Positions 1,235 through 46,143 of a stretch of 51,290 nt of DNA are shown here, piece by piece. Every line of letters begins with the position of its first letter. Position 1 is the stretch's first letter. Source of the DNA: an uncultured Candidatus Saccharibacteria bacterium (GTDB lineage Bacteria; Patescibacteriota; Saccharimonadia; CAILAD01; BJGX01); the NCBI GenBank assembly GCA_964390265.1, contig CAYMHI010000006.1, positions 6,327 through 57,616 on the forward strand, in the 5' to 3' direction. The notes under the pieces were generated by a model, which worked only from the letters and a program-made list of their open reading frames with translations, made no database searches and was not told where the DNA came from. Both the position numbers and the translations under genes were made by a program.

Positions 1235-2154
1235 TTATACTGTCGGTTCAGTACCGGTAATAGTGGCAAAAATACGGGCCAGCTCTTCGTCTGAATAGTA
1301 TTCTATTTGTAGCTTGCCGCCCTTAGCAGTTTTGTGAAGACTTACTTTGGTGCCTAAATATTTACCAAGGTCTTGGGTAAGCTTTCGTTGTGGTGCCTCG
1401 GCCTCTTTTACCTTGCTCCGTTTAATTTCTACGCCAGACTTAAATTCTCTAATTAAAGTTTCGGCGTGACGAACTGTTAAATTGTGCTTGATAATGTAAT
1501 TGAGAAACTGATCTTGTTTGACTGGGTCGGTTAATGAAAGAAGGGTGCGAGCATGGCCTTCGGTAATAATACCCTCATTGAGAGCAGTCTTGGCCTTGTG
1601 GGTAAGGTTTTGTAAACGAATAATGTTAGTAATAGTAGATGTTGCCTTACCCACCGACTCACCAATTTTTTCGTGAGTCATATTAAACTGATCAACTAAT
1701 TTTTGGTATGCCACTGACTGCTCTAATGGTTTTAAATCTGAACGCTGAACATTTTCAATTAAGGCTACCTCGAGCTGTTGTTGCTCATTATAGGTACGCA
1801 CTATTACTGGTACACTAGTAAGCCCTGCCAGTTTGGCGGCACGCAAGCGGCGCTCACCAGCTACTAAATTGTATTTCCAGTCGTTTTCTGCGGTAACAAT
1901 AAGTGGCTGTATAATACCGTATTGTTTAATGCTCTCGGCCAACTCTTGCAGCTCTTCTTCTTCAAAATCGGTACGGGGCTGGTAGGGATTGGCGTCAATG
2001 TTTTCTATAGGAATCTCAGTAACAGTCTTACTACTTACGCGCACCTCTTGTGGAAGTGTGTCAGATGCAAACTCATCCACCTGATCAATTTGATCTGGAA
2101 TAAGTGAATCTAGGCCCTTGCCCAGTCTACTGCTACTTGCTTGGTTGTTCGACA
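1235..2154 (-). CDS. parB: Chromosome partitioning protein ParB/Spo0J
   Basis: Contains the GERRLRAAKLAG ParB box, the N-terminal GKGLDSLIP motif and an HTH region. The ORF extends to 2221, but a GTG at 2154 preceded by AGGAGA is the likely start. Either way it overlaps the 3' end of parA. Confidence 0.85.
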
Positions 2155-2903
2155 CGCCTAGTGATCTCCTTAGTAAGCTTTTTATATGCGAATGCACCTC
2201 TGCAAAACTTATCGTAAGCATAAATGGGTTTGCCGTGCGACGGTGCTTCTGCTAATCGTATATTGCGCGGTACTGTAGTGTCAAATAATAACTTGCCAAA
2301 ATGCTTGTTGAGCTCACTCATCACCGCCGAGCTTAGGCTGGTGCGACCATCGTGCATAGTTACTACCACACCCAGCAACTTTAGACTGGGGTTGAGTGCG
2401 GCACGTACTCGCTTAACAGTATTTAGCAGTTGGCCCAGACCTTCTAAGGCATAATACTCGGCCTGTGCAGGTATAAGTAAATAGTTAGCTGCTACCAAGC
2501 CGTTAATTGTGAGTAGCCCCAAGGATGGTGGGCAATCAATAATTATATAATCATAATCAAGCCCTTGAAGAATAGTTTTGAGTACAAACTCTCGGCTTTG
2601 GCGACGCGCCAGCTCAATCTCGGCAGCGGCGAGGTGTGAGTTGGCCGGTAAAATTGCCAGGTTTTTATACTCAGTTTCAACAATACAGTTTTGAGCTAAA
2701 ACACTCCCTTGCAACACATTGTATATACTGTGCTGCAACTCGGCTTTATTAATGCCCAATCCACTCGAGCTATTTCCTTGAGGGTCTAAATCTATCAATA
2801 GAGTAGATTTACCCATTTTGGCTAAATAAGCCGCAACATTGATTGCAGTAGTTGTTTTGCCCACGCCGCCTTTTTGGTTCGCAATTGCAATACAATGCGC
2901 CAC
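2133..2903 (-). CDS. parA: ParA/Soj family partitioning ATPase
   Basis: Deviant Walker A KGGVGKTTTAINVAAYLA and 256 aa. It sits immediately upstream of parB on the same strand. Confidence 0.92.
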   Translation of the reverse strand: MAHCIAIANQKGGVGKTTTAINVAAYLAKMGKSTLLIDLDPQGNSSSGLGINKAELQHSIYNVLQGSVLAQNCIVETEYKNLAILPANSHLAAAEIELARRQSREFVLKTILQGLDYDYIIIDCPPSLGLLTINGLVAANYLLIPAQAEYYALEGLGQLLNTVKRVRAALNPSLKLLGVVVTMHDGRTSLSSAVMSELNKHFGKLLFDTTVPRNIRLAEAPSHGKPIYAYDKFCRGAFAYKKLTKEITRRVEQPSK

Positions 2904-3516: not shown

Positions 3517-4986
3517 TTATTTGCAGGCTTCTACCAATGGATCACCAACTATACGTGCTTGCATCCAAGCCAAGGTGTCTTTTAAGCTGGCGTTCATAGT
3601 TTGATAATGATCTACTAAACCAGTAGGATTGTAGCCCTGTATCGCATAGGGGCTAGTATTGTATTCTTTTAAATTTACTTGGTTACCAGATTGGCATAAC
3701 CTAACATAACTAGCACGGTTTTGGCGTGGCAATACAACGTTGTCGTGTAGCCCTTGATTAATTAACTTGGGTGTTGTGGTTTTTATTGGGCCAACTAGGT
3801 TTGACTCCATATCAGCCTGAAACTGTGAATATATAGGATTGCTAGCAATATTGCCGGACTGAGCAGCCTTAATAAACTCGGGTGTGTATATTTTGGCAGA
3901 TCTATTAACGCCTATATTGTTGGGCCAGTATTGATTAACGCTGTCAATGCATTCCCTAGTAGAGTCGGCCTCAATTGTTTTGTTCCAGGGTGGCATAATA
4001 ATCTTATTGACGGGATAGCTGCGCTTATACCAGTCTTGATAGCTAGTGAGTACGAATGGGCCAAACCAATTAATGTTGGCATTATTAACAATAGCATCTG
4101 TTAGTGTCTCGTTTACGCTAGTAACTGGGCCAAACCCTATACTGCCTTTTAATTTAATATCTGGTGCATACTTGTCTGCAATAGCATCGGCCCAGAATGC
4201 GGCGTGTCCACCTTGGCTGTAACCACCCGTAAAAATAGCCTCGTCATTGATACTGTTTTTGCTGCTATCTAGATTATACAAAGCTCTAATACCATCTAAA
4301 ACAACCCTACCCTCAATGTCACCTACCATATAATGATGAACTCTGGCAGGATCTCGCATGCCCTCATAATCAGCTACCACTACCGCATACCCCTGGCTAG
4401 CGTATGCCGCCATTAGGCTGTCGTAATTTGCCCAATTTCTTTTTTGAGGTTGTTCCAAACTAGCAGCACAGCCATCGCCAATTCCAGTAGTACCGGTAGC
4501 AAAAGAAAGGACGGGTAGTTTTTTACCCTTGGCATCGGCGGGTAAATAAACCTTTGCATAAATTGGAATATCGCTAGTATTACCATCTGAGCTAGTATAG
4601 CTTATAACTTGTTTGGTCATACCGGTGTTTACTGGTAGATCAAAATTACGATTGGTTTGTTTTATTAAAGCTTGAGTTTGGGCAGCAGATAATACTTGCT
4701 CTGGCTCGGTGGAAATAATTTTGCCAGTTGTTATGGCCGGTGGTTTGGTTTGTTCTACCTGTTGTGCCGGGGTGTTGTGAATAACATTTCGGGCATCTAC
4801 GTAGGCTTTCCAACGCAGCCATCCCCCCAAAGCAATCATAATAAATATTTCAATTCCTAGTATTATAAAAAGTTTTTTGTTTATTTTTTTATTATTAGAT
4901 TTGCTATTAGCATCAGGTAGAGTTCTGTTACTTAGCGACTGTTTATTGGTATTATTACTCATATTAACGTGATTATTTTTTTTCAT
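3517..4986 (-). CDS. Secreted or membrane-anchored alpha/beta hydrolase, secretory-lipase (LIP)-like
   Basis: N-terminal TM anchor followed by a GYSQGG nucleophile elbow (GxSxG) in a roughly 400-aa extracytoplasmic domain. Confidence 0.55.
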   Translation of the reverse strand: MKKNNHVNMSNNTNKQSLSNRTLPDANSKSNNKKINKKLFIILGIEIFIMIALGGWLRWKAYVDARNVIHNTPAQQVEQTKPPAITTGKIISTEPEQVLSAAQTQALIKQTNRNFDLPVNTGMTKQVISYTSSDGNTSDIPIYAKVYLPADAKGKKLPVLSFATGTTGIGDGCAASLEQPQKRNWANYDSLMAAYASQGYAVVVADYEGMRDPARVHHYMVGDIEGRVVLDGIRALYNLDSSKNSINDEAIFTGGYSQGGHAAFWADAIADKYAPDIKLKGSIGFGPVTSVNETLTDAIVNNANINWFGPFVLTSYQDWYKRSYPVNKIIMPPWNKTIEADSTRECIDSVNQYWPNNIGVNRSAKIYTPEFIKAAQSGNIASNPIYSQFQADMESNLVGPIKTTTPKLINQGLHDNVVLPRQNRASYVRLCQSGNQVNLKEYNTSPYAIQGYNPTGLVDHYQTMNASLKDTLAWMQARIVGDPLVEACK

Positions 4987-5462
4987 AATTCACCTTTTAC
5001 CATTAAATACATATCTACATTATAATCTACGTTAGAAATTATTCTATCTATATTGTAACCAGCTCGCTCATAAAAATGCTGTTGATTATGGGTTACTAAT
5101 TGAATTGATGCGACACCCCCTTTTTTTAATGTAAGTTCTGTTTCACTCAATAAAAGCTGTCCCAATTGTTTTTTGCGCAATACCGGATCAATGTATAACC
5201 AGTACAAAAAGGCTTGAGTATTGTCTTTTTGTATGCCCGCTATTGAATAACCTTTGAGGCTGTTACCATCATAAATGCCAGTATATAAGCGCTTGGGATG
5301 TAGAGCGCCAAGACATAGCCTTGTTACATTGTTAGTACGACGCACATTCTGACGATATTCAGGCGAAAAATATGCAAAATCTTTTTCTAGTGCTTGATCA
5401 AAGAGATTGTAGAGTTTACCTCCATGAACAAATGGTATTTTTTTGATAAGTATATTTGTCAT
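4983..5462 (-). CDS. GNAT family N-acetyltransferase
   Basis: LYWLYIDPVLRKKQLGQLLL fits the acetyl-CoA binding motif A (R/Q-x-x-G-x-G/A) in a 159-aa protein. It overlaps the upstream gene by 4 nt. Confidence 0.55.
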   Translation of the reverse strand: MTNILIKKIPFVHGGKLYNLFDQALEKDFAYFSPEYRQNVRRTNNVTRLCLGALHPKRLYTGIYDGNSLKGYSIAGIQKDNTQAFLYWLYIDPVLRKKQLGQLLLSETELTLKKGGVASIQLVTHNQQHFYERAGYNIDRIISNVDYNVDMYLMVKGEL

Positions 5463-5504: not shown

Positions 5505-6437
5505 CTATAAATTGGCAATATAGTGTTCAGCCTCTAAGGCGGCTTTACAGCCCTCGCCGGCAGCTGTAATAGCTTGTCTATAGCGCGAGTCGGCAACATC
5601 GCCGGCAGCAAATACTCCAGCCACTCTAGTAGTTGTATCTGGCTTGGTCTTTAAATATTTTTTTTCGTCAAGTTCCAAAACACCTTCAAAGAGTTTTGTA
5701 GCCGGGGTGTGGCCTATAGCCACGAATAAGCCTTCACATTTAAATTCTGATATTTTATCATTTTTGGTATCTTTGAGCTTTACACCCTCTACAAAATCTT
5801 TACCTAATACATCTACAATCGTTGCATTCCAGATAATATTAATTTTCTTGTGTTCTTTTACACGGTCTTGCATAATCTTGCTGGCTCTAAATTCGTCGCG
5901 ACGATGTACTATAGTAACTTTGCTAGCAAATTTTGCCAGCGTGAGAGCCTCTTCCATGGCGCTATCGCCACCGCCAGCAACCACCACATGTTTATCGGTA
6001 AAGAAAAAACCATCACAGGTAGCACAGGCCGAAATGCCCCTACCCATTAACCGTTGCTCGTTTTCTAAGCCCAACCAGTTAGCACTGGCGCCAGTAGAAA
6101 TTATTATCGTCTTGGCGTTATACTCATCACCCCCTACCCAAACCTTTTTAACTTTGCCTTTAAAATCTATCTTTGTTACAAAGTCTGCGCGAAACTCGGT
6201 GCCAAAACGCAAAGCCTGTGACTTCATCTCTTTCATCAGTTCTGGACCCATAATGCCGTCTTTAAATCCTGGAAAATTCTCTACCTCTGATGTAAGTAGT
6301 AACTGACCACCCGGCGTATCACCTGCCAGCATAAGTGTCGATAAATTTGCTCTGGCGGTATAAATTGCAGCCGTGTAGCCAGCCGGACCGGCGCCAATAA
6401 TAATTACATCGTACGATTTGTTCGATTGTTTGCTCAT
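5505..6437 (-). CDS. trxB: Thioredoxin-disulfide reductase
   Basis: FAD site IIIGAGPAGYTAA, redox-active CATCDGFFF, NADPH site VVAGGGDSAMEEA and 310 aa. A TATAAT lies 9 nt before the ATG with no SD. Confidence 0.92.
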   Translation of the reverse strand: MSKQSNKSYDVIIIGAGPAGYTAAIYTARANLSTLMLAGDTPGGQLLLTSEVENFPGFKDGIMGPELMKEMKSQALRFGTEFRADFVTKIDFKGKVKKVWVGGDEYNAKTIIISTGASANWLGLENEQRLMGRGISACATCDGFFFTDKHVVVAGGGDSAMEEALTLAKFASKVTIVHRRDEFRASKIMQDRVKEHKKINIIWNATIVDVLGKDFVEGVKLKDTKNDKISEFKCEGLFVAIGHTPATKLFEGVLELDEKKYLKTKPDTTTRVAGVFAAGDVADSRYRQAITAAGEGCKAALEAEHYIANL

Positions 6438-6502
6438 AGAAATCTTATTATACCAAAATAATTGGTGAATATTTATATTCGAATTAAAGTTTTAAAAATC
6501 TT

Positions 6503-7279
6503 TTATGGTCTAAGCGTACCAGCAAAAACTTGCCAAGCTAAAGCTGACTTTGCAACTAAGCTAAGAATAATGTAGGCTCGTTCGCCGTAAAGGTAATCGC
6601 GCCAAGGACCAATCTTTTTGTATTGCAATACCATATTGATAGCGAAACAATTGAAAAATATAAATAAGCTTACAAATATGTAGTAAACAAAGGTTGGTAT
6701 TTTGGCATCACCTACGCCAAACTGCGCCGAAGCCCAAAAAGTTAGTGCTATACCTATCCATGGTATTATACCCGCCAAACTACCTATCCAAAAACTCAAC
6801 CAACTAGTCTTTTTGGTAGTTTGATTATGCACTTCCATTATTAAGCCACACAAATTCATTACGGCTGTTAAGGCAAATAATGCTAGAAGCGTTACTATGT
6901 CATAAATACCTGTAAGCATGGCAATGGCTACTATCATAGTACTGGCACTTACGCTATATTCTATCCAACGAGCTCGGTTCATACCTTTTGCAAGATCGGC
7001 CTCATAGCCCTTGCGCCAAACTGTGGTGATTATTAAATGTGCAATTCCGCTCATAAACAAAAAGGCCACAACAAGGTAGGCCAAATTGATATTAAATAGC
7101 GTTTTGGTGACCGGCGCCAAAGTTCGAGTAGCTACATCAAACTGCAAAAAAGTAGTTGTTACGGGCAAAGTAAAGCTTTTACTCAAATACAATATTAATC
7201 CAGCTTGGGCAAAATGCAGTGCAGCCGCCACAAGATTTAAATTACGCAATTTTTTCATTGAAATTTTCGATTCAGCCAC
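6503..7279 (-). CDS. Heliorhodopsin (7-TM retinal protein with inverted topology)
   Basis: Strong similarity to heliorhodopsin 48C12 as I recall it. RWIEYSVSASTMIV matches RWVEYSLSSSVMIV, which contains the counterion Glu. GERAYIILSLVAKSALAWQVFAGTL matches GERAYIVLSLVAKSALAWQIFSGTL, which contains the Schiff-base Lys. AAGGAG sits 6 nt before the ATG. Confidence 0.85.
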   Translation of the reverse strand: MAESKISMKKLRNLNLVAAALHFAQAGLILYLSKSFTLPVTTTFLQFDVATRTLAPVTKTLFNINLAYLVVAFLFMSGIAHLIITTVWRKGYEADLAKGMNRARWIEYSVSASTMIVAIAMLTGIYDIVTLLALFALTAVMNLCGLIMEVHNQTTKKTSWLSFWIGSLAGIIPWIGIALTFWASAQFGVGDAKIPTFVYYIFVSLFIFFNCFAINMVLQYKKIGPWRDYLYGERAYIILSLVAKSALAWQVFAGTLRP

Positions 7280-7369
7280 TATATGCTCCTTAAAAATTAA
7301 TTAAATTTATTGTAACATAACTGCAATAGCTATGTGATATAATAAGGTTAGATTAATAAGGAGATAACT

Positions 7370-7750
7370 ATGACAGGATTTGTAACAAACATTGAAAAAG
7401 ATACTCTTGAAAACGACAATTTTCGTAAGGTGCTGTATACAGCTAAGCATATGCAACTGGTAGTAATGAGTATAAATGTAGGTGAAGAAATCGGTTTAGA
7501 AACTCACCCCGAGCACGATCAGTTCATTAGAGTGGATGCTGGCAGTGCTAAAGCTATTTTAAATGGCGAAGAATCAGAACTTACCGATGGTAGCTGTGTA
7601 ATTATTCCGGCTGGCGTAGAGCACAATATCGTCAACACTGGCGAAGATAAACTCAAACTATACACTATCTACTCACCCCCAGAACACCCCGATGGTACAG
7701 TGCACGCCACTAAGGCCGACGCCATGGCTGACCCTCACGAACAGCACTAG
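7370..7750 (+). CDS. Cupin domain protein
   Basis: 126 aa with cupin His/Glu motifs (G.E.GLETHPEHDQF...PAGVEHN). Strong SD AAGGAGA and an extended -10 TGaTATAAT lie upstream. Confidence 0.7.
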   Translation: MTGFVTNIEKDTLENDNFRKVLYTAKHMQLVVMSINVGEEIGLETHPEHDQFIRVDAGSAKAILNGEESELTDGSCVIIPAGVEHNIVNTGEDKLKLYTIYSPPEHPDGTVHATKADAMADPHEQH

Positions 7751-24143: not shown

Positions 24144-26264
24144 CTACTCGTAGGTGGTCATGCCCTCATCGACTGACTCAGCCGAGGAGTCGCCTTCTGA
24201 TGGCGTGGCTTCGGTTGTTGGGTCGGTCGCGAGCTCGGGCTGAGCAGAATCGTTACTGCCCATGAAAGAGCCGCCATCGGCGCCATTGCGCATCGCCATC
24301 GCGAGCAATGCATCTAGCATACCACTTCCGGCGCCCTGGCCACCCACAAGGATATCGGGCGTCAGGTTGATGTTGCCATCACCAATCTCGTGCAGAGCAG
24401 CAACGACCGCCGTCTGTTCGGGACCAATGGCATCCTTCTGTGCCTCGTAGCCAGCTGCCACAGCAAGACCCTTGGCCTTGGTTGTCTCAGCTTCAGCCAG
24501 ACCAGTTGCCTGAATGGCACTGGCATTGGCATCACCGGTGATCTTGGTGATATCGGCCGCTGCCTGGCCCTTCTGACGTGTGACCTCAGCCTCGCCTTCA
24601 GCCTGCTTGACAGCTGCCTTAGCTTCAGCATCTCTGACGTCAATATTGACGTTCGCTCGAGCCAAATCGGCCTGAGCATCAGCCACACCCTTCTGGTTCT
24701 CGAGAGCAATACGTGCCTGCTCGGCTACCATCTCACTCTCGTACGTTGCCTTCTGCTGAGCCGCGATCTCTCGCTTTGTGAGTACTTCAACAAGCTCGGG
24801 CGGGAAGACTACGTCCTGAATGTAGACACCTCGCACCTCAACCTCATAGCGGGTCAAGTACGTAGTGATATACTGTTCGGCCGCAGCCTGAACTTCGTCA
24901 CGTTTCTGAATGAACTCAGCAGCACCGAGTGACTGCAACTTGTTACGGAAGTAGTTGCCTACCGCCGATTGCAGCACCTCATTGACAAGATTCTGCATGG
25001 TCGCAACCATGCTGATAACCTTCGGTGCCCTAGTATCAGGTACGTGAATCTGCACCTGTAAATCAATACTGAAGTCGAATGCCTCCCTGCTCATGGCATC
25101 AATTGCAGACAATCGCGCATCAAGATCATGAGCTTCGCTGGTAGCGTTGGCCCAGTTTAGCGTCAAGATAGACGTCGGAACGATCTCGGCCTCGTAGATA
25201 CGAGGGTTAAGGGTATACTTGCCGGTGCGCATCGGCTCCGACCAAATACCCTGATGACCCGGCTTAACAATAGAGCCAAACTTGAACTCATTACCAGAAG
25301 TGTCTTCAGTCGGCAAGCCAACATAGGCCTTGATGACAGCTACCTCGCCCTGACGGACGACGAGCATGTCGCGGATCTCGACTTCTACAAGATAAGGATT
25401 GAGCAAGTATTGCCCGTAGAGCAATGGGTCGTGCTGCAAACCAATACACCCACCGGCGTCCAGAAAGGCCTGGAAGTCCTGATAGTTATCGTGCACTTCA
25501 TTTTGCGGAGCCAACACTTTGGTAATGATGGTATTGGCCGGAATGCCCTCTGCCTCGGCTGCGATGACATCATCATAGCCACCAAGTCGACTGGCAATGC
25601 CCTTGGCCGCTGCGCCTTCTAGGGTAGTGACCACACCAACCTTGTCAGTATGCCCCTCTGGTCTAATAGTGAATGGTTTGAACTTACTTCTGTCGACCAT
25701 GTGTAAAACATTCTTGGTACTTTCGGAGAGGACTTCACCGAAGGTCTGCGAAGCAGTCTGTACCACGAAGGCAATGGGGTGCATCTGCTGGGTAGTACCC
25801 GGAGGCAAAACCTTTCGCTGCACACCACGCTGTCCTCCATTCGATAAGAAGGCATTGAGATCTGCGAAAGATCCAAATTCTTCCTTGTCTACACCTGTCT
25901 TCACACCCCGAGGAAGTTCTTCGCCTACTTGAGCGACAACTACGCCAATCTCATCTGGCGGCACTTGCACCATCTGACACTTCTTGACCAAGAAGATCGG
26001 CCAAAGCTTGAAGCGTGTACCCGGTTGTAGCAACTCTGCTTGGTACCCTGCCTCACCATGGAAGGCAATCAGATGCCCATCGTTAAGCTTCTTTCCAAAT
26101 CGCTTCTCGACTAGTCCGAACTGGTCGGGGCCGATGCTATGGATGCTCTTTGTGACGAACCGCCACGCAAAGAACGCAACGATCAGCAGTAAGACGCCTA
26201 GCACTATTGGAACAACCGGAATACTCATGGCTGCACCAATCATATATATATGGGAATGTACCAT
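24144..26264 (-). CDS. Flotillin-like SPFH/band-7 protein (FloT/YqiK type) on a GC-rich island
   Basis: N-terminal TM, an SPFH domain and a long Ala/Glu/Gln/Lys coiled-coil flotillin C-terminus (EAKAAVKQAEGEAEVTRQKGQAAAD...). The start is uncertain: ATGs occur at 26264, 26243 and 26228, and the ORF extends to 26336. GC-rich codons throughout. Confidence 0.8.
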   Translation of the reverse strand: MVHSHIYMIGAAMSIPVVPIVLGVLLLIVAFFAWRFVTKSIHSIGPDQFGLVEKRFGKKLNDGHLIAFHGEAGYQAELLQPGTRFKLWPIFLVKKCQMVQVPPDEIGVVVAQVGEELPRGVKTGVDKEEFGSFADLNAFLSNGGQRGVQRKVLPPGTTQQMHPIAFVVQTASQTFGEVLSESTKNVLHMVDRSKFKPFTIRPEGHTDKVGVVTTLEGAAAKGIASRLGGYDDVIAAEAEGIPANTIITKVLAPQNEVHDNYQDFQAFLDAGGCIGLQHDPLLYGQYLLNPYLVEVEIRDMLVVRQGEVAVIKAYVGLPTEDTSGNEFKFGSIVKPGHQGIWSEPMRTGKYTLNPRIYEAEIVPTSILTLNWANATSEAHDLDARLSAIDAMSREAFDFSIDLQVQIHVPDTRAPKVISMVATMQNLVNEVLQSAVGNYFRNKLQSLGAAEFIQKRDEVQAAAEQYITTYLTRYEVEVRGVYIQDVVFPPELVEVLTKREIAAQQKATYESEMVAEQARIALENQKGVADAQADLARANVNIDVRDAEAKAAVKQAEGEAEVTRQKGQAAADITKITGDANASAIQATGLAEAETTKAKGLAVAAGYEAQKDAIGPEQTAVVAALHEIGDGNINLTPDILVGGQGAGSGMLDALLAMAMRNGADGGSFMGSNDSAQPELATDPTTEATPSEGDSSAESVDEGMTTYE

Positions 26265-26489
26265 GTCCTTATAGGACCTTTCTCTAGGGAATACTTTCCG
26301 ATGCGCTATTATACAGACGAAATGAAAAATACGCAATAGTTTTGTTTTGCATAAGCCCTTTAGGATTATTTATTGCTAACAGATATACTACAACCCTACG
26401 CAACCAACTAACAACTAAGAAAGTTGGTATAAATGAAAAACCGGCCTGCTCTCTGGGTCAGAGAACAGACCGGGTGTTGCTGGTGGTGC

Positions 26490-27176
26490 TTAACAGTCGG
26501 GGTCGGCTACCGGTACTCGCAACTGGTCTCGGACTACACTCTTGTGGTAGCCCGTCTCGGGTGTACCCATCACCACGTCGTATACCAGCGTGAACTGGTT
26601 GAAGCGAGCGCCCAGGGCGCGCAGGTTGCACTCTGTCAAGCGAGATTCGCTGATCTCGCCCCGACCGTACTCCCCGTTCTGGAACTGCCAGCCCGCGATC
26701 AACGTCTCAGAGTAACCATCGATCGAGAACTCCTCCTCGTAATTGAAATCACGGGTTACCAAGAACCCAGGCTGATCACCCGAATGCAGGTAGTCATCCA
26801 TGGAGTCTTGTTTGAGGCCATCAATCTCGGCCTGATTGGCCTGGATGTTCACATCGGCATGCATGTGCTCAATGAACACCTGGGTGGTCTCAGGCGCACT
26901 CACTAGTTCTACGCGGATGTTGAGGGTCTTGCTGTCGGTGATCCTCCACGAATCAATGTCATAGCCCGTGGAGTAGGTCATTCTTAGCTCGACAGGAGAA
27001 GGCGAACCAGAATTGATGGTGGTCTCGATGCTGAAGTTGCCACCGGCCAGATCGTTGTCGAGCACACCAATACCCCGCTCGTGCTGGGTATCTTGAGATT
27101 GCTCTGGCCCTGAGGTGCAGGCCGCCAGCATGGCGATCAGCACCGTCACCAGTAGCAGAAATGAAGGTACGCGCAT
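26490..27176 (-). CDS. Lipoprotein of unknown function on the same GC-rich island
   Basis: Signal peptide MRVPSFLLLVTVLIAMLAAC with lipobox LAAC. The start is the internal ATG, which has an AAAGGA SD. GC-rich codons. Confidence 0.6.
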   Translation of the reverse strand: MRVPSFLLLVTVLIAMLAACTSGPEQSQDTQHERGIGVLDNDLAGGNFSIETTINSGSPSPVELRMTYSTGYDIDSWRITDSKTLNIRVELVSAPETTQVFIEHMHADVNIQANQAEIDGLKQDSMDDYLHSGDQPGFLVTRDFNYEEEFSIDGYSETLIAGWQFQNGEYGRGEISESRLTECNLRALGARFNQFTLVYDVVMGTPETGYHKSVVRDQLRVPVADPDC

Positions 27177-27293
27177 TTTCACGGTTTTTGTCCTTTTGGT
27201 AGATGAAAAATGCAATGTCTAGAGTATTCTACACTATTTGTGCTATTATGTCAATACTGAGGTTGTAATTCAAAAACTTGTTATACTATAGAA

Positions 27294-31627: not shown

Positions 31628-32764
31628 CTAAAACTTATTCTTATCTAGCTCTTCAAACTTGGCCTTCATAGTAGGATTACCACGGGTCAGGCGCTTGATA
31701 GTCAGATCTTCGGCTTTTTGATTGGCAAGTCTCAAGTTGTCTTCAGAACGCAGCAGATTCTCTTTGGTCTTTTGTAGTTGTGCGATAGTCTTGTCTATAC
31801 CCTCTATGGCCGATTGAAACTTACGACTTGCTAGATCGTAATTGCGCGCAAACCCTTCTTTGAATGCATTGATATTATCTTCAAAATCAGTGATGTCGAT
31901 ATTTTGAGCTCTGACCAATGCTAGCTCAGACTTGTATTGCATAGAGTTGAGTGCGGCGTCGCGTAGCAGGGTAATAATCTGTATGAAAAACTGCGGACGT
32001 ATCACATACATCTTGGGGTGCTTGTGTGAGACATTGACTATGCCGGTATTGTACAGCTCACTATCTGCCTCGAGCAATGTGACTAGCACTGCAAATTCGC
32101 ATTTCTTCTCATTGCGGTCTTTGTCGAGCTCTTTCAAGAAATCCTCATTGCGCTTCTTGGTAGCAGTCTCATCACCTTCGTTTTTCATCTCAAACATTAT
32201 AGAGATGATCTCGTTGCCGGCCTCGTCGGTCTCACGATATATGTAGTCGCCCTTGCTCCCACTACTAGCATCGTTGTCTTTTTCGAAGTAGGCGTTTTTA
32301 AATGCGGTTGCTCGCAACTTGTTGAATTCCGTCTCGCAATGTTGCTCGAGAGTCTCACCCACCATCTTGGTACTGAGCTTAGACTTCATATCTTTGTAGA
32401 GCTCTACTGTGCTCTCGGCTATTTTTAGATCACCCTCGAGTCCATTTATCTTGTTTTCGTAGCGTTCTCGGAGCTCTTCGACAGCTTCGGTGACAGCCAG
32501 TTTCTTCTCAGTATCTATCGAGTCTAGCTTGGATTGTAGCTTGACTATCTCGGCATCTTTTTGGGCTGTCTCGGCTTGCAGAGCACTTTTAGTCTTGGCC
32601 TCGGCCAGCGCTACGGCGCTCTCTTTGTCTTTTTCAAATAGCTCGAGCCGCTCGTGCAGTTCTTTCTCAAACTCACCATCGCGCACTTGTTTGAGTATAT
32701 TGGTAAAATCCGCCTCGTCGAGCTTAAAAGTTTTTTTACAATGTGGACATACAATTTCGTTCAT
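31628..32764 (-). CDS. DUF2130 protein (N-terminal CxxC zinc ribbon plus long coiled coil)
   Basis: [40 protein letters not shown] matches the DUF2130 N-terminus. 378 aa. Confidence 0.6.
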
Positions 32765-32888
32765 GTACCATTACTCCATCTTCTTATATAAAATTCTTAT
32801 CACCATTTTACCAAATATAGTACGAACACTCAATCATTAATAATGTTAATTACAAACCTCTTTTGTATATCGATTTCTATGCAGAGTA

Positions 32889-33761
32889 TTAGTTCTTAAT
32901 CTCTAGCGAATATTTAAGCAAAGTAAGAGAAGAATATGCTACCATTTGTACATAATTTAATGCAAATTCTTTGTTGATATCTTCATCTTTTGTAAGGGAA
33001 TTTTGGTAGTCAAATAGATAGTTCACCAAATCAAAAAAGAAAGCGATTGTGTTGATAACTGGCGACATACTATTTTCATCAAATCTAAGATGTAGAAACT
33101 CATTCTTTCTGAAAGAATCTGATCTCATTAATTTAGCTCCAATATCAAAATTATAAATAATACTTTTATATTTTTGTTTATTCATACAGTCACTCCTTAT
33201 ACTCCACCCAATAAGCTGTATAATATTAGTATTGTTACTAATAATTTTCATAATCTTTAGTCTAGGTTCCACAGTATGTACTAAATCATGTCTGTAAATC
33301 TGTATTAAGTATTTACTATACTTTCTATATCTTGCCTTCATATCTTTAGGTCCAAAAGACATTAACAGTTTACTAATATTACCTGTACCTTTACCATAGG
33401 AACTATTTTTATCGGGGCCATATCTTAACATAGATACTAAATCTATATAACAAAAAATATTTCTTAATACTGTAAATGGTGCTCCACCAGCTGTTACTTC
33501 GGGTGAATTTAATAGAGGGTAAACATCGTCACGTAATTGATCAATAAGAACACCTATGTATTCACTGGGGGTTATTAACCCGCAATTATATTTCAAATAT
33601 GGCTCAATTCTACTAGCCTCTTCAATGGCCGTAATATCATTAATAAATTCGTATACCCTAGCCCGATCGCCATCAGCCAATCTAACTAAATTTTTGTCCT
33701 TTAAAATTTTATCTAGTACTTCATTTCTGAACGCTTGTGTATTGTCTTCCCAGCCGCTCAT
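32889..33761 (-). CDS. Hypothetical protein within the defense-like island; possible HEPN/Abi-like (Rx4H motif)
   Basis: 290 aa and very AT-rich. It contains QIYRHDLVH (R-x4-H), but I recognise no other homology. Confidence 0.45.
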   Translation of the reverse strand: MSGWEDNTQAFRNEVLDKILKDKNLVRLADGDRARVYEFINDITAIEEASRIEPYLKYNCGLITPSEYIGVLIDQLRDDVYPLLNSPEVTAGGAPFTVLRNIFCYIDLVSMLRYGPDKNSSYGKGTGNISKLLMSFGPKDMKARYRKYSKYLIQIYRHDLVHTVEPRLKIMKIISNNTNIIQLIGWSIRSDCMNKQKYKSIIYNFDIGAKLMRSDSFRKNEFLHLRFDENSMSPVINTIAFFFDLVNYLFDYQNSLTKDEDINKEFALNYVQMVAYSSLTLLKYSLEIKN

Positions 33762-33800
33762 ATTATGTTATGAGTATATTTTTCAATTTCAACCAACATG

Positions 33801-34964
33801 CTAGCGATTACCCTTTGCACGGTTATGGGATATGCATAGCATTTCGCAGTTGCTAATGTCGGTTTTACCACCATTACTCCAGGCTGTTACGTGATCCGCA
33901 TCCATTTCAGATAACTTATATATACGGTCTTTGTTATTATTATTCCCAGAAGCACAAACGGGGCAATTTGATACTCCTTTTGCTTCAGCCTTTGCTGTTT
34001 GTTGTGCATAAGCCGTCTTAATCGTAGATGGTTCAAATATGCGTATTTTTAGCAATGAAGGGTCCTTCATGCCACCAAGAATGTACTCAAAAACACCTTT
34101 CTTCCTGCGTACTTCGTAATTCGTAAAAAGCTCTCTAACTTTGGATGCAACCTCTTGTGGATCATAAGAATTAGAACCGTAATCTTTGTACAAGCGATTC
34201 CATTCAAGCCCACGCATTTCGCTATGAACATCTGTGAAAATATTTGAAGCCCAATCTATGACCTTGTCGAAATGACTTTTAAGTTCTTCTATGTTGCCAT
34301 CATTACGATGCTTACTCATGTAGGCATCTATTCGCCCATTGCTTACCCAATCCAGCGCTGTCTCAAGGAAGTCTTGCCGCTTTACATCGCCGGCAACGTA
34401 GGCACTCCATTTTTGAACATTAGCATCTTGACTGTTACTAAAAACTTCCTTTGCCTTTGTCACGAATGGCCCATGATAGACTGCATTTCGAATTTCTTGT
34501 ATTTTTAAAGGTACACCAGCAATGTTAATGGTCTCAAACCATTTCATCATTTCTTGCTCTTCACCCTCGCAGATATAAATGAGTAACTCTTTATCTAATA
34601 TCAATTTACGCTGTGCTTCAGACATTCCACTGTAGTATTGTTCGTGATCATTAGCGTCTTTAACTGCAAACTTGCCTTTAACAAATCGGCCAATACTAGT
34701 AATTCGTTGTTGGCCATCTAACACCTCGTACTTATTGCCACCAATTTTATTAAAATAGATAATACCAATTGGATAGCCCTTTAATATGCTATTTATTACA
34801 GCAACGTCCTTTATGCCGTCGGCATAAATATAATTTCTCTGATACTCGGGCTGAATTGTGAGCTTTCCCGTAAGTCCAAACAAACCTTTTCCTTCAAACT
34901 CATTGTATTCAAATCCATCTACTATCTCTCTTATGGTAATGTTAGTATTTAGTGTTGTAATCAT
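33801..34964 (-). CDS. DUF262 (ParB-like nuclease/NTPase, DGQQR motif) fused to a C-terminal HNH endonuclease
   Basis: The N-terminal domain carries the ILDGQQRITSIGRF hallmark of DUF262/GmrS-like domains. The C-terminus is an HNH (His-Me finger): CPVC..(n)..DADHVTAWSNGGKTDISNCEMLCISHNRAKGN. ATGA overlap with the upstream MTase. Confidence 0.8.
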   Translation of the reverse strand: MITTLNTNITIREIVDGFEYNEFEGKGLFGLTGKLTIQPEYQRNYIYADGIKDVAVINSILKGYPIGIIYFNKIGGNKYEVLDGQQRITSIGRFVKGKFAVKDANDHEQYYSGMSEAQRKLILDKELLIYICEGEEQEMMKWFETINIAGVPLKIQEIRNAVYHGPFVTKAKEVFSNSQDANVQKWSAYVAGDVKRQDFLETALDWVSNGRIDAYMSKHRNDGNIEELKSHFDKVIDWASNIFTDVHSEMRGLEWNRLYKDYGSNSYDPQEVASKVRELFTNYEVRRKKGVFEYILGGMKDPSLLKIRIFEPSTIKTAYAQQTAKAEAKGVSNCPVCASGNNNNKDRIYKLSEMDADHVTAWSNGGKTDISNCEMLCISHNRAKGNR

Positions 34965-36136
34965 TTTAGTGCCTTTCTATGTTTAATAAGTATTCGCGAG
35001 TATACTTTTTTCTTATTTACAACACCAACGCCTTGACCTGCACCCTCCGCCCCAGAGACATTAGGAATAAAACCAGTGATTTTTAATAATTCTTTCGGCA
35101 TATTTGCATAAGAGTTCCCGCTAGCTTGCCAGATTATTTCGAATTGATCAGGGTTATATTTATCTAAAAAACTAATAGGTACACCCATGATGCCGTCGAA
35201 GTCTGATGGGATTGCATCTGTATATGGCACCTCGATTGCATTGTAATTGTCGTATCTTCTATATGCTGAATCGCTTTTAGTAATCTTTTTATTAAATTTT
35301 TTATTATCTGCCATAGTCATGATTGCTAAAGGTTGATGCCGTCTGCCGTGGTCAAGGTTTGTAAACCAGCAAGAATTACCCAGCCTCGTAAAGTCACCTT
35401 TGTATCCTAGTTTTTCAGCTTTCTTCTTATAAGCAGGGGGCACATCAGAGCCTTTAGGAACAGCAAATACCATATCGCTAGTATAGCCCGTAGCCCCTTG
35501 CCACATCTTATTTTCTCTAATTAACGGAAAAATTTCTTTATATATTACTGCACCAATATTACCTATAATCAAGAACTTTTTATCATACTTAACTAGCTGC
35601 GCTACATATTCACGGAAAAGGCTGAAGGGCGGGTTGGTAACAATAACGTCAGATTTATTGAGTAGTGCAACGCACTCATCGCTGCGAAAATCGCCATCCC
35701 CCTCGAGTGGAGCCCACTCATTATTCTTATTTGCCTTGAGCTGTTCAGCAATGTCTGAAATATTGAAAGCTCCATCACCATCCATGTCATGTACATCGTT
35801 TATAATAAATAAATTTGCATTAACTTTTGGCCTACCCTTTTCAGGCTGAATAGTTTTATCGTCACCAAATAATGCAAGTTGTGTATTAGCTATCGGCGAA
35901 GGTTTGTAGCTTGTAGTAATGAGTTGCTTGAGGCCTAGACGGTTAAAATTAAGTGCAAAATAGCGGAAAAAGTTACTTTCAAAAGGGTCATCGCAATTAC
36001 AATAGACAACTTTTCGACGGAAAGAATTTGGATCATATTCGAGATATGCTTCTATTTCTTTTTGAATGTCAGCAAATTGAGTGTAGAACTCATCATTCTT
36101 TGCACTTTTAGCTGCACTTAAATTAGTATTTGCCAT
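34961..36136 (-). CDS. N6-adenine DNA methyltransferase, M.EcoRI-like family
   Basis: NDEFYTQ...VVYCNCDDPFESNFFRYFALNF...DVIVTNPPFSLFREY (motif IV NPPF)...GIMGVPISFL. The domain order and motifs resemble M.EcoRI-family enzymes as I recall them. Confidence 0.8.
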   Translation of the reverse strand: MANTNLSAAKSAKNDEFYTQFADIQKEIEAYLEYDPNSFRRKVVYCNCDDPFESNFFRYFALNFNRLGLKQLITTSYKPSPIANTQLALFGDDKTIQPEKGRPKVNANLFIINDVHDMDGDGAFNISDIAEQLKANKNNEWAPLEGDGDFRSDECVALLNKSDVIVTNPPFSLFREYVAQLVKYDKKFLIIGNIGAVIYKEIFPLIRENKMWQGATGYTSDMVFAVPKGSDVPPAYKKKAEKLGYKGDFTRLGNSCWFTNLDHGRRHQPLAIMTMADNKKFNKKITKSDSAYRRYDNYNAIEVPYTDAIPSDFDGIMGVPISFLDKYNPDQFEIIWQASGNSYANMPKELLKITGFIPNVSGAEGAGQGVGVVNKKKVYSRILIKHRKALK

Positions 36137-36577: not shown

Positions 36578-36979
36578 CTAGCGCCAATTGAGATAGGTAA
36601 TACTCAGCTGCAAAGCGGTGGCAAATAAGCCCCAGAGCAGATATGGCACATTGACTATCGATACCCAACGCAGGTGTGGCCAGACAGCAATAAGTGCCCA
36701 AACAAGAGTTGCCACTACTAAGAGAATATCTATACTGGCCAGCAAGTTGTTGCGCAAGCCAAACTGCAACGGTGTAAAGGCGAAGTTGAAAGTGAGATTG
36801 AGCGCAAACGGTAGCGCTACTAGCCACGGCAATTGCTTGGTGGCAGCCATATAAAAAACTACGCCAAAAGATATAAGAATAATAATAATATAGAGTAACG
36901 TCCAAACCTGGCCAAAAAGCCATACGGGCGGAGCCCACGATGGCTTAATGAGCGATTGGTACCAATTGTAAGTTTGCAT
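36578..36979 (-). CDS. tspO: TspO/MBR (tryptophan-rich sensory protein) family membrane protein
   Basis: WYQSLIKPSWAPPVWLFGQVWTLLYIII matches the TspO signature Y..L.KP.W.PP...F..VW..LY. The likely start is the internal ATG (MQTYNWYQ). Confidence 0.8.
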   Translation of the reverse strand: MQTYNWYQSLIKPSWAPPVWLFGQVWTLLYIIIILISFGVVFYMAATKQLPWLVALPFALNLTFNFAFTPLQFGLRNNLLASIDILLVVATLVWALIAVWPHLRWVSIVNVPYLLWGLFATALQLSITYLNWR

Positions 36980-37239
36980 TGTAGCTCTATTGTAACGCCT
37001 GGGGCGTACCATAACAATAATTAGAGATCCTGAAGCAAGTTCAGGATGACGGGTGCGTGCGCCTATAGACATAAGCAATACGATTATGTTATATTGGCTA
37101 TATCACCATAACCAGGGATGCCTAAGGTTTCGACCGGCCGCTAGTCCTGGTCTTTTTGTATTTTACTGACTTTCTTAATCGATCAATCTAAACAATATAT
37201 TGATTAATTAGCTTGAGTAAGTTTGAGAATGAGATAGTT

Positions 37240-38420: not shown

Positions 38421-39098
38421 TTAAGTAGACTGTTTAATCAACACAGCGCTATTGTGCTTGGCGCTATTAACCTCGCTTGAGACAGTGTAGGCGCTCATAT
38501 CTTTGGCTTTGTATGGCTGCAGTAGGTGTTCCAAAAATCCAATGTCATCATTGGCCTTGGGGCTAATCCAGTCGTCCTCTTGGCTGGGCTCTAATATAAC
38601 CGGCATACGGTCGTGTATGGGCTTAACTACCCCATTGGGGTTGGTGGTAATAATGGAGTAACTACGGATGACTTCACCGCTGGATTTGTCTGTCCACTCA
38701 TCATATAGCCCGGCAAAGGCAAAGGTATCCTCACCGGTAAGGTGTATGTAGTAAGGGGTTTTGGTACTGCCGTCGCGCCGCCATTCATAAAATCCACTAG
38801 CTGGCACCAAACAGCGTTGCGACTTAAAAGGGCGTTTCCAGGTAGGTTTTTCGGCCAAGGTCTCGGCTCGGGCATTTATCATCTTGTAGCCTATAGTGGC
38901 GTCCTTGGCCCAAACAGGGATAAGCCCCCAACGCATCAGCTCGAGCTGGTTGCCTTTGCCGCTATTGGTGATTACCGGCATGGTCTGGCCGGGCGCGATA
39001 TTGTAGTTGGGTTTGATCTCACCAGCCGGCTTGCCCTGCACTCCAAAACGAGTGATGAGTTTGGCCTTGCCACTAACGAGGGTGTATCTTCCGCACAT
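38421..39098 (-). CDS. SOS-response associated peptidase (SRAP/YedK/HMCES family; abasic-site DNA-protein crosslink)
   Basis: The N-terminal MCGRYTL carries the catalytic Cys2 of SRAP proteins. 225 aa. Confidence 0.9.
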   Translation of the reverse strand: MCGRYTLVSGKAKLITRFGVQGKPAGEIKPNYNIAPGQTMPVITNSGKGNQLELMRWGLIPVWAKDATIGYKMINARAETLAEKPTWKRPFKSQRCLVPASGFYEWRRDGSTKTPYYIHLTGEDTFAFAGLYDEWTDKSSGEVIRSYSIITTNPNGVVKPIHDRMPVILEPSQEDDWISPKANDDIGFLEHLLQPYKAKDMSAYTVSSEVNSAKHNSAVLIKQST

Positions 39099-39171
39099 AG
39101 GTATAATTATACACTTTTGCGGTCAATTTTGCTCTTGCATTTGTTCGCTATATGTTCGTATAATATAGAGT

Positions 39172-39432
39172 ATGATAGAGCCGGTAAACCAAGCTGTAGA
39201 TATACTCTCACTCTCACGCAAGGGGCGAGGTATAGTGGTGCCTTTGCGGATGAAGTGGAACAACAAGACCTATGAGATCAAAAAAATAGGCTTGCGCCAC
39301 CCCGTGCGCGAGGGTCGGGTGCTTTATCATATATTTGAATGTAGCGATGGCAACCTAAGCTTTCGGCTCAGACATAATACTGAGTCTTTGCAATGGACCC
39401 TAGAGGCAATTAGTGATGGCCTACCTGCTTAA
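39172..39432 (+). CDS. Small protein immediately upstream of, and overlapping, the Y-family polymerase gene; possible polymerase accessory subunit (YolD/UmuD analogue)
   Basis: 86 aa. It overlaps the polymerase ORF by 17-20 nt. No domain recognised. Confidence 0.4.
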   Translation: MIEPVNQAVDILSLSRKGRGIVVPLRMKWNNKTYEIKKIGLRHPVREGRVLYHIFECSDGNLSFRLRHNTESLQWTLEAISDGLPA

Positions 39433-40696: not shown

Positions 40697-40740
40697 AATT
40701 GGTTGATTGTGACGAAACTAGATTTAATTAAAACAAATAA

Positions 40741-44593: not shown

Positions 44594-44645
44594 GTAAGCA
44601 ACTTTTTATATGGTAATTTATGAACATATTGGTTAAGATATATTC

Positions 44646-45692: not shown

Positions 45693-45696
45693 AATA

Positions 45697-46083
45697 TTAT
45701 TTTGTTTTTGTGCTACTTTTTTCTTCAGAGGGCGTAAGCAACACGATGCTTAGGCCAATACCAAAGAATAGTGCTTGTAAAAAATTGACTTTACCAATTG
45801 AGGCTATCTCACCAACTACCCAAAACATCATAATAATGCCAGAAACTACAGTAGCTAAATTGGCACCTATTAATTTTTTGTGTTGGCTTACAGCAGCAAT
45901 AAGCGCACTACCACCCACCACTGCCATAAGAATTACTCCTGGAAAGTAGTAGGTTTTAAATCCGGTAGGCTCCAGCCATTGTGCCGGTAAGCCCATTTTG
46001 CCCATTATTAAACCAACCCCGCCCAATATGGCCGCAAAGCTAGCAAACCACAAAAGACCAATTAATATTTTGTGTTTATTCAT
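45697..46083 (-). CDS. Small membrane protein (4 TM, DoxX-like?)
   Basis: 128 aa and hydrophobic. Confidence 0.4.
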   Translation of the reverse strand: MNKHKILIGLLWFASFAAILGGVGLIMGKMGLPAQWLEPTGFKTYYFPGVILMAVVGGSALIAAVSQHKKLIGANLATVVSGIIMMFWVVGEIASIGKVNFLQALFFGIGLSIVLLTPSEEKSSTKTK

Positions 46084-46143
46084 TGTTTTATTATACCTTT
46101 AAATTTAGCTTAGCAAAATAGCTATGCTTTATGATAGACAACC

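What the first reader, a model, noticed from the sequence alone, without database searches (positions are those of the whole stretch)
6503..7279. Heliorhodopsin gene with no retinal-biosynthesis genes in the neighbourhood
The ORF aligns convincingly with characterised heliorhodopsin, conserving both the Schiff-base Lys and the counterion Glu, and it has a strong SD. Nothing in the 51 kb looks like crtE/B/I/Y or blh. Its neighbours are trxB and a cupin protein. In a small-genome organism this suggests dependence on exogenous retinal. This has been proposed for type-1 rhodopsins in Saccharibacteria; whether it applies to a heliorhodopsin here is open.
Basis: partly seen in the sequence, partly recalled or inferred. 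Interest (0 to 1): 0.6.

Follow-up and report, generated by a model that had tools for sequence, protein, structure and literature searches.

The report
Heliorhodopsin gene in a Saccharibacteria genome
This is an ordinary, intact heliorhodopsin (a retinal-binding light-sensor membrane protein) in a tiny-genome Saccharibacteria bacterium; such genes, and the idea that their owners must scavenge retinal, are already in the literature.

Summary
Window 6503..7279 on the minus strand encodes a 258-aa heliorhodopsin (HeR). It gives a full-length Pfam PF18761 match (E 8e-98) and an NCBIfam HeR equivalog match (342 bits). It is 56% identical to the crystallised TaHeR, and the AlphaFold model has TM 0.89-0.93 to it. 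Schiff-base Lys (K244), counterion Glu (E107), the His pair, the SLVAK motif and the lateral-fenestration residues are all present. The GTG start has AAGGAG 6 nt upstream. The neighbours are trxB (downstream, same strand) and a small cupin (divergent).

No predicted protein in the 51 kb matches a carotenoid or retinal enzyme. The organism is a Candidatus Saccharibacteria bacterium. The closest species representative has 88% HeR identity and the same gene order.

The interpretation (retinal scavenged from outside) is plausible. It cannot be shown from about 6% of a genome, and it is not new:
- HeRs were catalogued in 80 Saccharimonadia genomes.
- Rhodopsin-bearing Saccharibacteria were reported to lack blh.
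- The HeR fenestration was proposed as a route for exogenous retinal in TaHeR.

HeR-trxB adjacency occurs only in the closest relative, and trxB has its own conserved promoter-like element. A recurrent HeR-cupin linkage (15 of 80 species) is the only unreported detail. Low interest.

The parts
6503..7279 (-). Heliorhodopsin CDS, 258 aa, GTG start, TAA stop. It has 7 TM helices plus an A-B beta-hairpin and a B-C loop helix. K244 (Schiff base) is codon 6550..6548 and E107 (counterion) is codon 6961..6959.
7286..7291 (-). Shine-Dalgarno AAGGAG, 6 nt upstream of the GTG start of the HeR gene
   Evidence: read directly from the sequence
7309..7338 (-). Promoter-like site for HeR: ATCACA, 18 nt, TACAAT, with TG upstream (extended -10). 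The -10 element is conserved in the 88%-identity relative L002.
   Evidence: consensus match only, not shown to function
7335..7343 (+). Extended -10-like TGATATAAT for the divergent cupin gene, 24 bp from the HeR -10 element (back-to-back promoters). Conserved in L002.
   Evidence: read from the sequence, inference
7370..7750 (+). Small single-domain cupin (Cupin_2, 126 aa), a homologue of Bacillus halodurans BH2720 (PDB 2OA2, function unknown). It is divergent from HeR and is the commonest HeR neighbour in Saccharibacteria.
5505..6437 (-). Thioredoxin reductase (low-Mr TrxB, 310 aa, CATC active site, HRRDEFR NADPH motif), 65 bp downstream of HeR on the same strand
6447..6455 (-). TGGTATAAT extended -10-like element 9 nt before the trxB ATG. 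There is no SD. It is conserved in L002 while the rest of the spacer has diverged, which suggests trxB has its own (leaderless-type) promoter.
   Evidence: inference from sequence
3517..5462 (-). GNAT acetyltransferase (4983..5462) and LIP-family secreted lipase/hydrolase (3517..4986), overlapping by 4 nt, downstream of trxB. They form a conserved trxB-GNAT-LIP block in relatives, independent of HeR.

Best explanation
The gene encodes a functional heliorhodopsin of a Candidatus Saccharibacteria (CPR/Patescibacteria) bacterium.

Shown here:
- The protein has the HeR fold, the Schiff-base lysine K244 in an SLVAK motif, the counterion E107 and the His pair H22/H81.
- It has the residues that form the lateral opening between TM5 and TM6 next to the retinal ring: F163, S167, G170, F209, N210, A213.

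Inferred from the family:
- It sits in the single membrane with its N-terminus inside.
- It binds all-trans-retinal covalently, absorbs visible light, and enters a slow photocycle that signals to a partner protein rather than pumping ions.

Inferred from the lineage and the literature:
- The cell cannot make retinal. It loads the apoprotein with retinal taken from its host or surroundings through the lateral fenestration.

The output partner is not identifiable from this locus. The weakest step is the output: a light-linked adjustment of stress or redox physiology is the leading published idea. The neighbouring trxB fits it only loosely, because trxB seems to have its own promoter and is adjacent only in the nearest relative.
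For: Family and fold:
- Pfam and NCBIfam give full-length matches.
- The protein is 56% identical to TaHeR and 44-45% identical to 48C12.
- The AF2 model has pLDDT 90.5 and TM 0.89-0.93 to 6is6/7u55.
- The model shows 7 helices, an A-B beta-hairpin (37-65) and a B-C helix (89-97). These are the HeR-specific elements described in PMC9385722.

Residues:
- K244, E107, H81, S240, G170, F209 and A213 are invariant in 42 relatives. N210 is present in 39 of 42.
- Position 163 is F or Y and position 167 is C/S in 40 of 42 relatives (V in 2).
- Together these match the fenestration rule of Kornilov et al..

Lineage:
- The 80 best genome hits are nearly all Saccharibacteria/Saccharimonadia MAGs.
- L002 has 88% HeR identity and the same gene order from abhydrolase-DUF2779-BipA on one side of HeR to L21-ParA on the other.

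No retinal genes:
- None in the window.
- None among the 20 Pfam-scanned clusters of the 36 commonest neighbour-gene clusters, plus those matched to window genes, in 1.07 Mb of HeR flanks from 80 species.

Literature:
- No blh in rhodopsin-bearing Saccharibacteria, and fast uptake of external retinal by HeR.
- 80 HeRs in Saccharimonadia and an oxidative-stress proposal.
- Redox genes are enriched near HeRs.
Against: - Only about 6% of the genome was seen, so a retinal pathway elsewhere is not excluded.
- No Saccharibacterial HeR has been expressed or measured, as far as the searchable literature shows.
- No histidine kinase, glutamine synthetase, photolyase or other published HeR partner lies next to the gene. 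The window's ABC-transporter genes are 13 kb and 35 kb away.
- The neighbourhood is poorly conserved across Saccharibacteria, so it gives no clear output.
- Topology, retinal binding and lack of ion transport are inferred by homology, not tested.
Confidence: 0.7

Rival explanations
1. HeR and trxB form a light-to-redox module. HeR is co-transcribed with thioredoxin reductase, or physically regulates it, to counter photo-oxidative stress.
For: - HeR and trxB lie on the same strand with a 65-bp gap and no terminator-like hairpin between them.
- The same adjacency is seen in L002, and trxB lies within 0.9-2.7 kb downstream in L022 and L013.
- Bulzu et al. report redox proteins (thioredoxin, peroxidase, catalase) enriched near HeRs.
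- Chiriac et al. propose an oxidative-stress role in CPR.
Against: - Direct adjacency occurs in only 1 of 80 other species. A close trxB homologue (76-84% identity) lies within the fetched flanks in only 5 of 80 (7 of 80 counting two 39-42% partial matches), and in two of those it is on the opposite strand.
- trxB has its own conserved TGGTATAAT element 9 nt before its ATG and no SD, so it is probably transcribed on its own.
- trxB-GNAT-LIP-L21-ParA is a conserved housekeeping block to which HeR is merely adjacent in this sub-lineage.
Confidence: 0.12
2. The HeR is mainly a two-chromophore light harvester. The fenestration binds an exogenous xanthophyll antenna, as Kornilov et al. 2025 propose for most HeRs, in addition to retinal.
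For: - The proposed carotenoid-binding-site motif is present: aromatic pair F163/F209, small residues S167/A213, G170 and N210.
- Saccharibacteria are monoderm epibionts that could reach host pigments (knowledge of the lineage; for the argument).
Against: - The proposal rests on docking and sequence statistics in a preprint. No carotenoid-bound HeR has been shown.
- The same residues equally serve retinal entry.
- No energy-conserving output (pump activity) is known for this HeR clade.
Confidence: 0.1
3. The genome does make its own retinal. The pathway is simply outside the 51-kb window, or uses an unrecognised enzyme such as the neighbouring cupin acting as a dioxygenase.
For: - The window covers only about 6% of a 0.6-0.8 Mb genome.
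- A cupin homologue lies near HeR in 15 of 80 species, far above the roughly 2% expected by chance.
- Cupins include C-C-cleaving dioxygenases. There are weak hits to quercetin 2,3-dioxygenase at E 0.006.
- Blh is a reported neighbour of some HeRs in other phyla.
Against: - Jaffe et al. found no blh in 79-98% complete rhodopsin-bearing Saccharibacteria genomes.
- No carotenoid gene family recurs in 1.07 Mb of HeR flanks.
- The cupin is a 126-aa soluble protein whose closest structure (BH2720) has no assigned function. Its family is common in bacteria without rhodopsins.
- A substrate (beta-carotene) would still have to be imported.
Confidence: 0.06
4. The protein is a light-gated or light-driven ion transporter, like the viral HeRs.
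For: Some viral HeRs (subfamily 2) transport ions.
Against: - This protein carries the fenestration motif, which the transporting viral subfamily lacks.
- It is closest to TaHeR and 48C12. As recalled from the original HeR papers (Pushkarev 2018, Shihoya 2019), those two show no transport; this was not re-read here.
Confidence: 0.03

Closest known systems
TaHeR, heliorhodopsin of Thermoplasmatales archaeon SG8-52-1 (PDB 6IS6, 7U55)
   Same: - 56% identity over the whole length, model TM 0.89-0.93.
- Same Schiff-base Lys, counterion Glu and His pair.
- Same fenestration residues: Y164/C168/G171/F203/N204/A207 in TaHeR against F163/S167/G170/F209/N210/A213 here.
- The host is likewise thought to lack retinal synthesis.
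   Different: - The host here is bacterial (Saccharibacteria), not archaeal.
- There is a 7-residue longer loop between TM5 and TM6 (residues about 184-193).
- S replaces C at the fenestration position.
- The protein has not been characterised experimentally.
Heliorhodopsins of Saccharimonadia catalogued by Chiriac et al. 2022 (Microbiome 10:84)
   Same: Same lineage, same SLVAK retinal-binding motif and same predicted inverted rhodopsin family. Many relatives at 60-95% identity are already in public databases and NCBI names them 'heliorhodopsin HeR'.
   Different: This particular sequence and species is not singled out in that work. I could not check whether this exact MAG was in their set.
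SacR type-1 rhodopsins of Saccharibacteria (Jaffe et al. 2022, ISME J 16:2056)
   Same: Same phylum. The same logic of retinal auxotrophy with a chromophore supplied by host Actinobacteria, and rapid loading of external retinal.
   Different: SacRs are type-1 DTS-motif outward proton pumps with the opposite membrane orientation. The protein here has no type-1 (PF01036) match and is not expected to pump.
HeR 48C12 (freshwater Actinobacteria; PDB 6SU3)
   Same: 44-45% identity. E107 has the same number in both proteins, and K241, F162, C166, G169, F206, N207 and A210 of 48C12 map one-to-one onto K244, F163, S167, G170, F209, N210 and A213 here.
   Different: It is more distant than TaHeR.

Membership tests
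Heliorhodopsin (PF18761 / NF038020) | Significant full-length match to the family profile above the curated cut-off | tested here: met
   Pfam 327 bits against 26.7, profile positions 1-242 of 242. NCBIfam equivalog 342 bits against 100.
Heliorhodopsin (PF18761 / NF038020) | Retinal Schiff-base lysine in TM7 within an SxxxK motif | tested here: met
   S240-L-V-A-K244 aligns with TaHeR K238 and 48C12 K241. It is invariant in 42 relatives. The motif definition comes from PMC9166423.
Heliorhodopsin (PF18761 / NF038020) | Single glutamate counterion in TM3 (E107 in 48C12, E108 in TaHeR) | tested here: met
   E107 aligns with it and is invariant.
Heliorhodopsin (PF18761 / NF038020) | 7-TM fold with a long A-B loop beta-hairpin and a helical B-C loop | tested here: met
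   AF2 model with pLDDT 90.5: helices 8-32, 66-85, 102-122, 128-155, 161-187, 196-221 and 229-256; strands 37-48 and 53-65; helix 89-97. TM 0.89-0.93 to 6is6/7u55.
Heliorhodopsin (PF18761 / NF038020) | Inverted topology (N-terminus cytoplasmic, C-terminus outside) | not tested
   Inferred only from homology to TaHeR and 48C12. No topology prediction or experiment was run.
Heliorhodopsin (PF18761 / NF038020) | Lateral fenestration next to the beta-ionone ring: opposing aromatics, small residues and Gly (48C12 positions 162/166/169/206/210) | tested here: met
   F163, S167, G170, F209 and A213, plus N210, by alignment. The opening itself was not measured on the model.
Heliorhodopsin (PF18761 / NF038020) | Binds all-trans-retinal, absorbs visible light, has a slow photocycle and does not transport ions | not testable with these tools
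   Needs heterologous expression and spectroscopy.
Heliorhodopsin (PF18761 / NF038020) | Host is a monoderm organism | tested here: inconclusive
   The host is placed in Candidatus Saccharibacteria by synteny and identity to MAGs. That Saccharibacteria are monoderm is taken from general knowledge of the lineage and was not shown here.
Retinal auxotroph (rhodopsin owner without a retinal pathway) | No crtE/B/I/Y, no blh/brp and no carotenoid-cleavage oxygenase anywhere in the genome | tested here: inconclusive
   These genes are absent from the 51-kb window and from the recurrent neighbours in 80 related loci. The rest of the genome could not be fetched. The literature reports absence of blh in rhodopsin-bearing Saccharibacteria.

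The most novel reading that the evidence does not exclude
In Saccharibacteria the heliorhodopsin works with a small BH2720-type cupin.

- In 15 of 80 species the two genes stay within a few kb of each other despite rearrangements.
- Here they share back-to-back promoters 24 bp apart.
- The cupin could be the missing output or accessory factor of this HeR clade. For example it could be a metal- or redox-dependent effector, or an enzyme acting on a scavenged carotenoid or retinoid. Together with the adjacent thioredoxin reductase it would form a light-responsive stress module that runs on host-derived chromophore.
- No paper in the searchable library mentions heliorhodopsin and cupin together.
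Probability: 0.1. Interest if true: 0.5.

Novelty: already known. Interest (0 to 1): 0.15.

Why it matters
As it stands this adds one more Saccharibacterial heliorhodopsin to a family that has already been catalogued, so it matters little.

Heliorhodopsin function is still largely unresolved. Episymbiotic bacteria with 0.6-0.8 Mb genomes that keep this gene in hundreds of species must gain something from it. A Saccharibacterial HeR that is shown to load host-derived retinal, and whose partner is identified, would tie chromophore exchange to the host-epibiont relationship. The recurrent cupin neighbour is a cheap lead for finding that partner.

Tried and rejected
1. **Finding the rest of the genome.** The exact-sequence look-up returned DNA for only one 7-kb Logan contig. 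Cluster listing showed an NCBI copy on a 57.6-kb contig but gave no accession.

2. **HeR-trxB operon idea.** No terminator-like site lies between the genes. However, trxB has its own conserved extended -10 element and no SD, and direct adjacency is not conserved. I downgraded this idea.

3. **Looking for a conserved signalling partner.** I clustered all ORFs in 80 related loci and ran Pfam on 20 cluster representatives. The only recurrent neighbours were the cupin, NUDIX, an unknown 177-aa protein, a ClpB-like protein, PAP2, VKOR, SDR, DUF308 and housekeeping genes. No histidine kinase, glutamine synthetase or photolyase recurred.

4. **Hidden Blh among unannotated window ORFs.** NCBIfam on ten hitless ORFs gave nothing relevant. 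The sequences I inspected are secreted or soluble proteins, or a 205-aa membrane protein unlike Blh.

5. **RNA elements.** There are no Rfam or tRNA hits in the window.

6. **Ion-transporting viral-type HeR.** Rejected, because the protein carries the fenestration motif that subfamily lacks.

Full report
**Observation**

- Read on the minus strand, AAGGAG (7291..7286) lies 6 nt before the GTG. The 'strong SD' is therefore real.
- The closest relative starts at the same position with ATG, which supports this start.
- The protein matches Pfam PF18761 over the whole profile (E 8e-98) and the NCBIfam equivalog model 'heliorhodopsin HeR' (342 bits, cut-off 100).
- Among solved structures the best hits are TaHeR (6is6, E 1e-83) and 48C12 (6su3, E 1e-60).
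- An AlphaFold2 model built on 42 relatives has mean pLDDT 90.5. It superposes on TaHeR with TM 0.89-0.93 and 56% identity, and on 48C12 with TM 0.85 and 44-45% identity. Type-1 rhodopsins follow only at TM about 0.6.
- The model shows seven helices, a long A-B beta-hairpin (37-65) and a short B-C helix (89-97). PMC9385722 describes these features as peculiar to heliorhodopsins.

**Key residues**

From the printed alignments:
- K244 equals TaHeR K238 and 48C12 K241.
- E107 equals TaHeR E108 and 48C12 E107.
- H22 and H81 equal TaHeR H23 and H82.
- The TM7 motif is SLVAK, one of the commonest motifs reported for CPR heliorhodopsins.

The residues that Kornilov et al. list as forming the lateral fenestration are 48C12 F162, C166, G169, F206, N207 and A210. 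They map to F163, S167, G170, F209, N210 and A213 here. In 42 relatives G170, F209 and A213 are invariant, position 163 is always F or Y, and position 167 is C or S in 40 (V in 2). All sequence-level hallmarks are therefore present. Topology, chromophore binding and photochemistry are inferred, not tested.

**Surroundings in the window**

Downstream on the same strand:
- A normal low-Mr thioredoxin reductase (5505..6437; CATC motif).
- A GNAT acetyltransferase.
- A LIP-family hydrolase.

Upstream and divergent:
- A 126-aa Cupin_2 protein (7370..7750).
- A RecD-like helicase.

Pfam scans of 59 ORFs across the 51 kb and NCBIfam on ten hitless ORFs found no phytoene synthase or desaturase, lycopene cyclase, Blh/Brp or carotenoid oxygenase. 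There are no tRNA or Rfam hits.

**Organism**

A scan of one genome per species with a profile of HeR relatives found 438 stretches that encode a relative. The 80 best are almost all Candidatus Saccharibacteria/Saccharimonadia MAGs, including near-complete 0.64-0.80 Mb contigs and one chromosome.

The nearest is L002 (CAYZYH010000001.1), with 88% HeR identity. It carries the same gene order (abhydrolase, DUF2779, BipA, RecD-like helicase, cupin, HeR, trxB, GNAT, LIP, L21, ParA) at 65-93% protein identity. The protein database holds thousands of relatives. Some are already named 'heliorhodopsin HeR [Candidatus Saccharibacteria bacterium]'.

**Is the neighbourhood informative?**

I clustered all ORFs in the 80 related loci (1.07 Mb).
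- Direct HeR-trxB adjacency occurs only in L002.
- trxB is 0.9 and 2.7 kb away in two further species, and about 5 kb away on the opposite strand in two more.
- The HeR-trxB spacer has no terminator-like hairpin. It does hold TGGTATAAT 9 nt before the trxB ATG, with no SD. This element is conserved in L002 while the rest of the spacer has diverged. I read this as trxB having its own promoter, which weakens the operon idea.
- HeR has its own extended -10-like element (TGtTACAAT, 7314..7309). It lies 24 bp from a TGATATAAT for the divergent cupin, and both are conserved in L002.
- The cupin is the commonest neighbour. A homologue lies within the fetched flanks in 15 of 80 species, and of the 12 that formed one ORF cluster 9 lie within 1.5 kb, in several orientations. 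About 2% would be expected for a single-copy gene (binomial 6e-11). The species are not independent, and Saccharibacteria genomes are generally syntenic.
- Its closest structure is BH2720 (2OA2), which has no known function.
- Other recurrent neighbours are NUDIX, an unknown 177-aa protein, a ClpB-like protein, PAP2, VKOR, SDR, DUF308, MurT/GatD, TldD/PmbA, SHMT and others.
- No carotenoid or retinal enzyme recurs, nor any published HeR partner (histidine kinase, glutamine synthetase, photolyase).

**Mechanism**

The best-supported account is the family's standard one. The protein is a retinal photoreceptor with a slow photocycle that signals to a partner.

In this lineage the chromophore most likely comes from outside:
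- Jaffe et al. found no blh in 79-98% complete rhodopsin-bearing Saccharibacteria. They note that heliorhodopsin takes up all-trans-retinal quickly through a small opening.
- The TaHeR fenestration was postulated to serve uptake of exogenous retinal because its host cannot make it.
- The fenestration residues are conserved here.

The output is unknown. A link to photo-oxidative stress has been proposed for HeRs in general and for CPR in particular, and it is compatible with the locus but not demonstrated by it.

**Rivals**
- A HeR-TrxB module (about 0.12).
- A xanthophyll-antenna light harvester, as in a 2025 preprint (about 0.1).
- A retinal pathway elsewhere in the genome, or an unrecognised one (about 0.06).
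- An ion transporter (about 0.03).

**Novelty**

Heliorhodopsins in Saccharimonadia (80 of the CPR occurrences, SLVAK motif) were described in 2022. Retinal auxotrophy of rhodopsin-bearing Saccharibacteria was described in 2022. Exogenous retinal capture by a HeR was proposed in 2019 (as cited). Retinal auxotrophy of HeR-bearing freshwater Actinomycetota is also discussed.

The finding is a correct annotation of a known kind of gene in a lineage where it is already known. What has not been done, as far as the searchable literature shows, is biochemical characterisation of a Saccharibacterial HeR. The HeR-cupin linkage is not mentioned in any paper in the library that contains both words.

**Verdict**
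- Interest is low (0.15).

Noticed in passing
window 7370-7750 (+); loci L002, L009, L011, L017, L020, L029, L030, L034, L038, L039, L052, L053, L070, L076, L003: A small BH2720-type cupin is the most frequent neighbour of heliorhodopsin in Saccharibacteria. It occurs in 15 of 80 species-representative loci, in varied orientation and distance. In the window the two genes have back-to-back extended -10 elements 24 bp apart. No paper in the library mentions both.
   Followed up: partly
window 6447-6455 (-); L002 8814-8822: trxB has no Shine-Dalgarno sequence but has a conserved TGGTATAAT ending 9 nt before its ATG. This suggests a leaderless-type transcript from its own promoter.
   Followed up: partly
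L007 3989-4495, L011 7445-7951, L019 7091-7624, L030/L034 7458-7958, L048, L051, L057: A conserved soluble protein of about 170-200 aa with no Pfam match (motifs GWFQWYCRYYMGRR and QRQALLHWAYDSR) sits immediately next to HeR in 8 species. In L011, L030 and L034 it forms NUDIX-unknown-HeR, with a 4-nt overlap between NUDIX and the unknown protein and a gap of about 45 bp before HeR. It is absent from this window.
   Followed up: partly
window 36578-37078 (-): A TspO/MBR family protein (tetrapyrrole-binding, linked elsewhere to light and oxygen responses) is encoded in the same small-genome contig as the heliorhodopsin.
   Followed up: no
window 24144-27215: This region has clearly higher G+C (0.47-0.53 against about 0.40). 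It holds a 730-aa SPFH/Band-7 protein with a long Ala/Glu-rich tail and a hitless ORF whose N-terminus looks like a lipoprotein signal. It may be horizontally acquired.
   Followed up: no
window 31628-36136 (-): A restriction-modification-like cluster: an EcoRI-type adenine methyltransferase (E 8e-126), a GmrSD_N + HNH nuclease, a hitless 290-aa protein and DUF2130.
   Followed up: no
window 38421-41607 and 49915-50490: A DNA-damage and redox set sits on the same contig: SRAP peptidase, a Y-family (IMS) polymerase, pirin and VKOR. VKOR is also a recurrent HeR neighbour in 5 other species (for example L006, L050, L078).
   Followed up: no
window 42510-48891 (+); L082 4586-6799: A MacB-type ABC pair and a 915-aa RND/MMPL-like transporter lie in this window. 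An MMPL protein also lies 3 kb from HeR in the complete relative OY970356.1. Such transporters handle lipids and could bear on uptake of hydrophobic cofactors.
   Followed up: no
L082 16871-20756: In the 778-kb complete Saccharibacteria chromosome, a cytochrome oxidase operon (COX2/COX1/COX3/COX4) lies about 6 kb from the heliorhodopsin. This fits reports of terminal oxidases in freshwater CPR.
   Followed up: no
window 1235-2903 (-): The longest ParB ORF overlaps the end of parA by 89 nt, so the true ParB start is probably further downstream.
   Followed up: no
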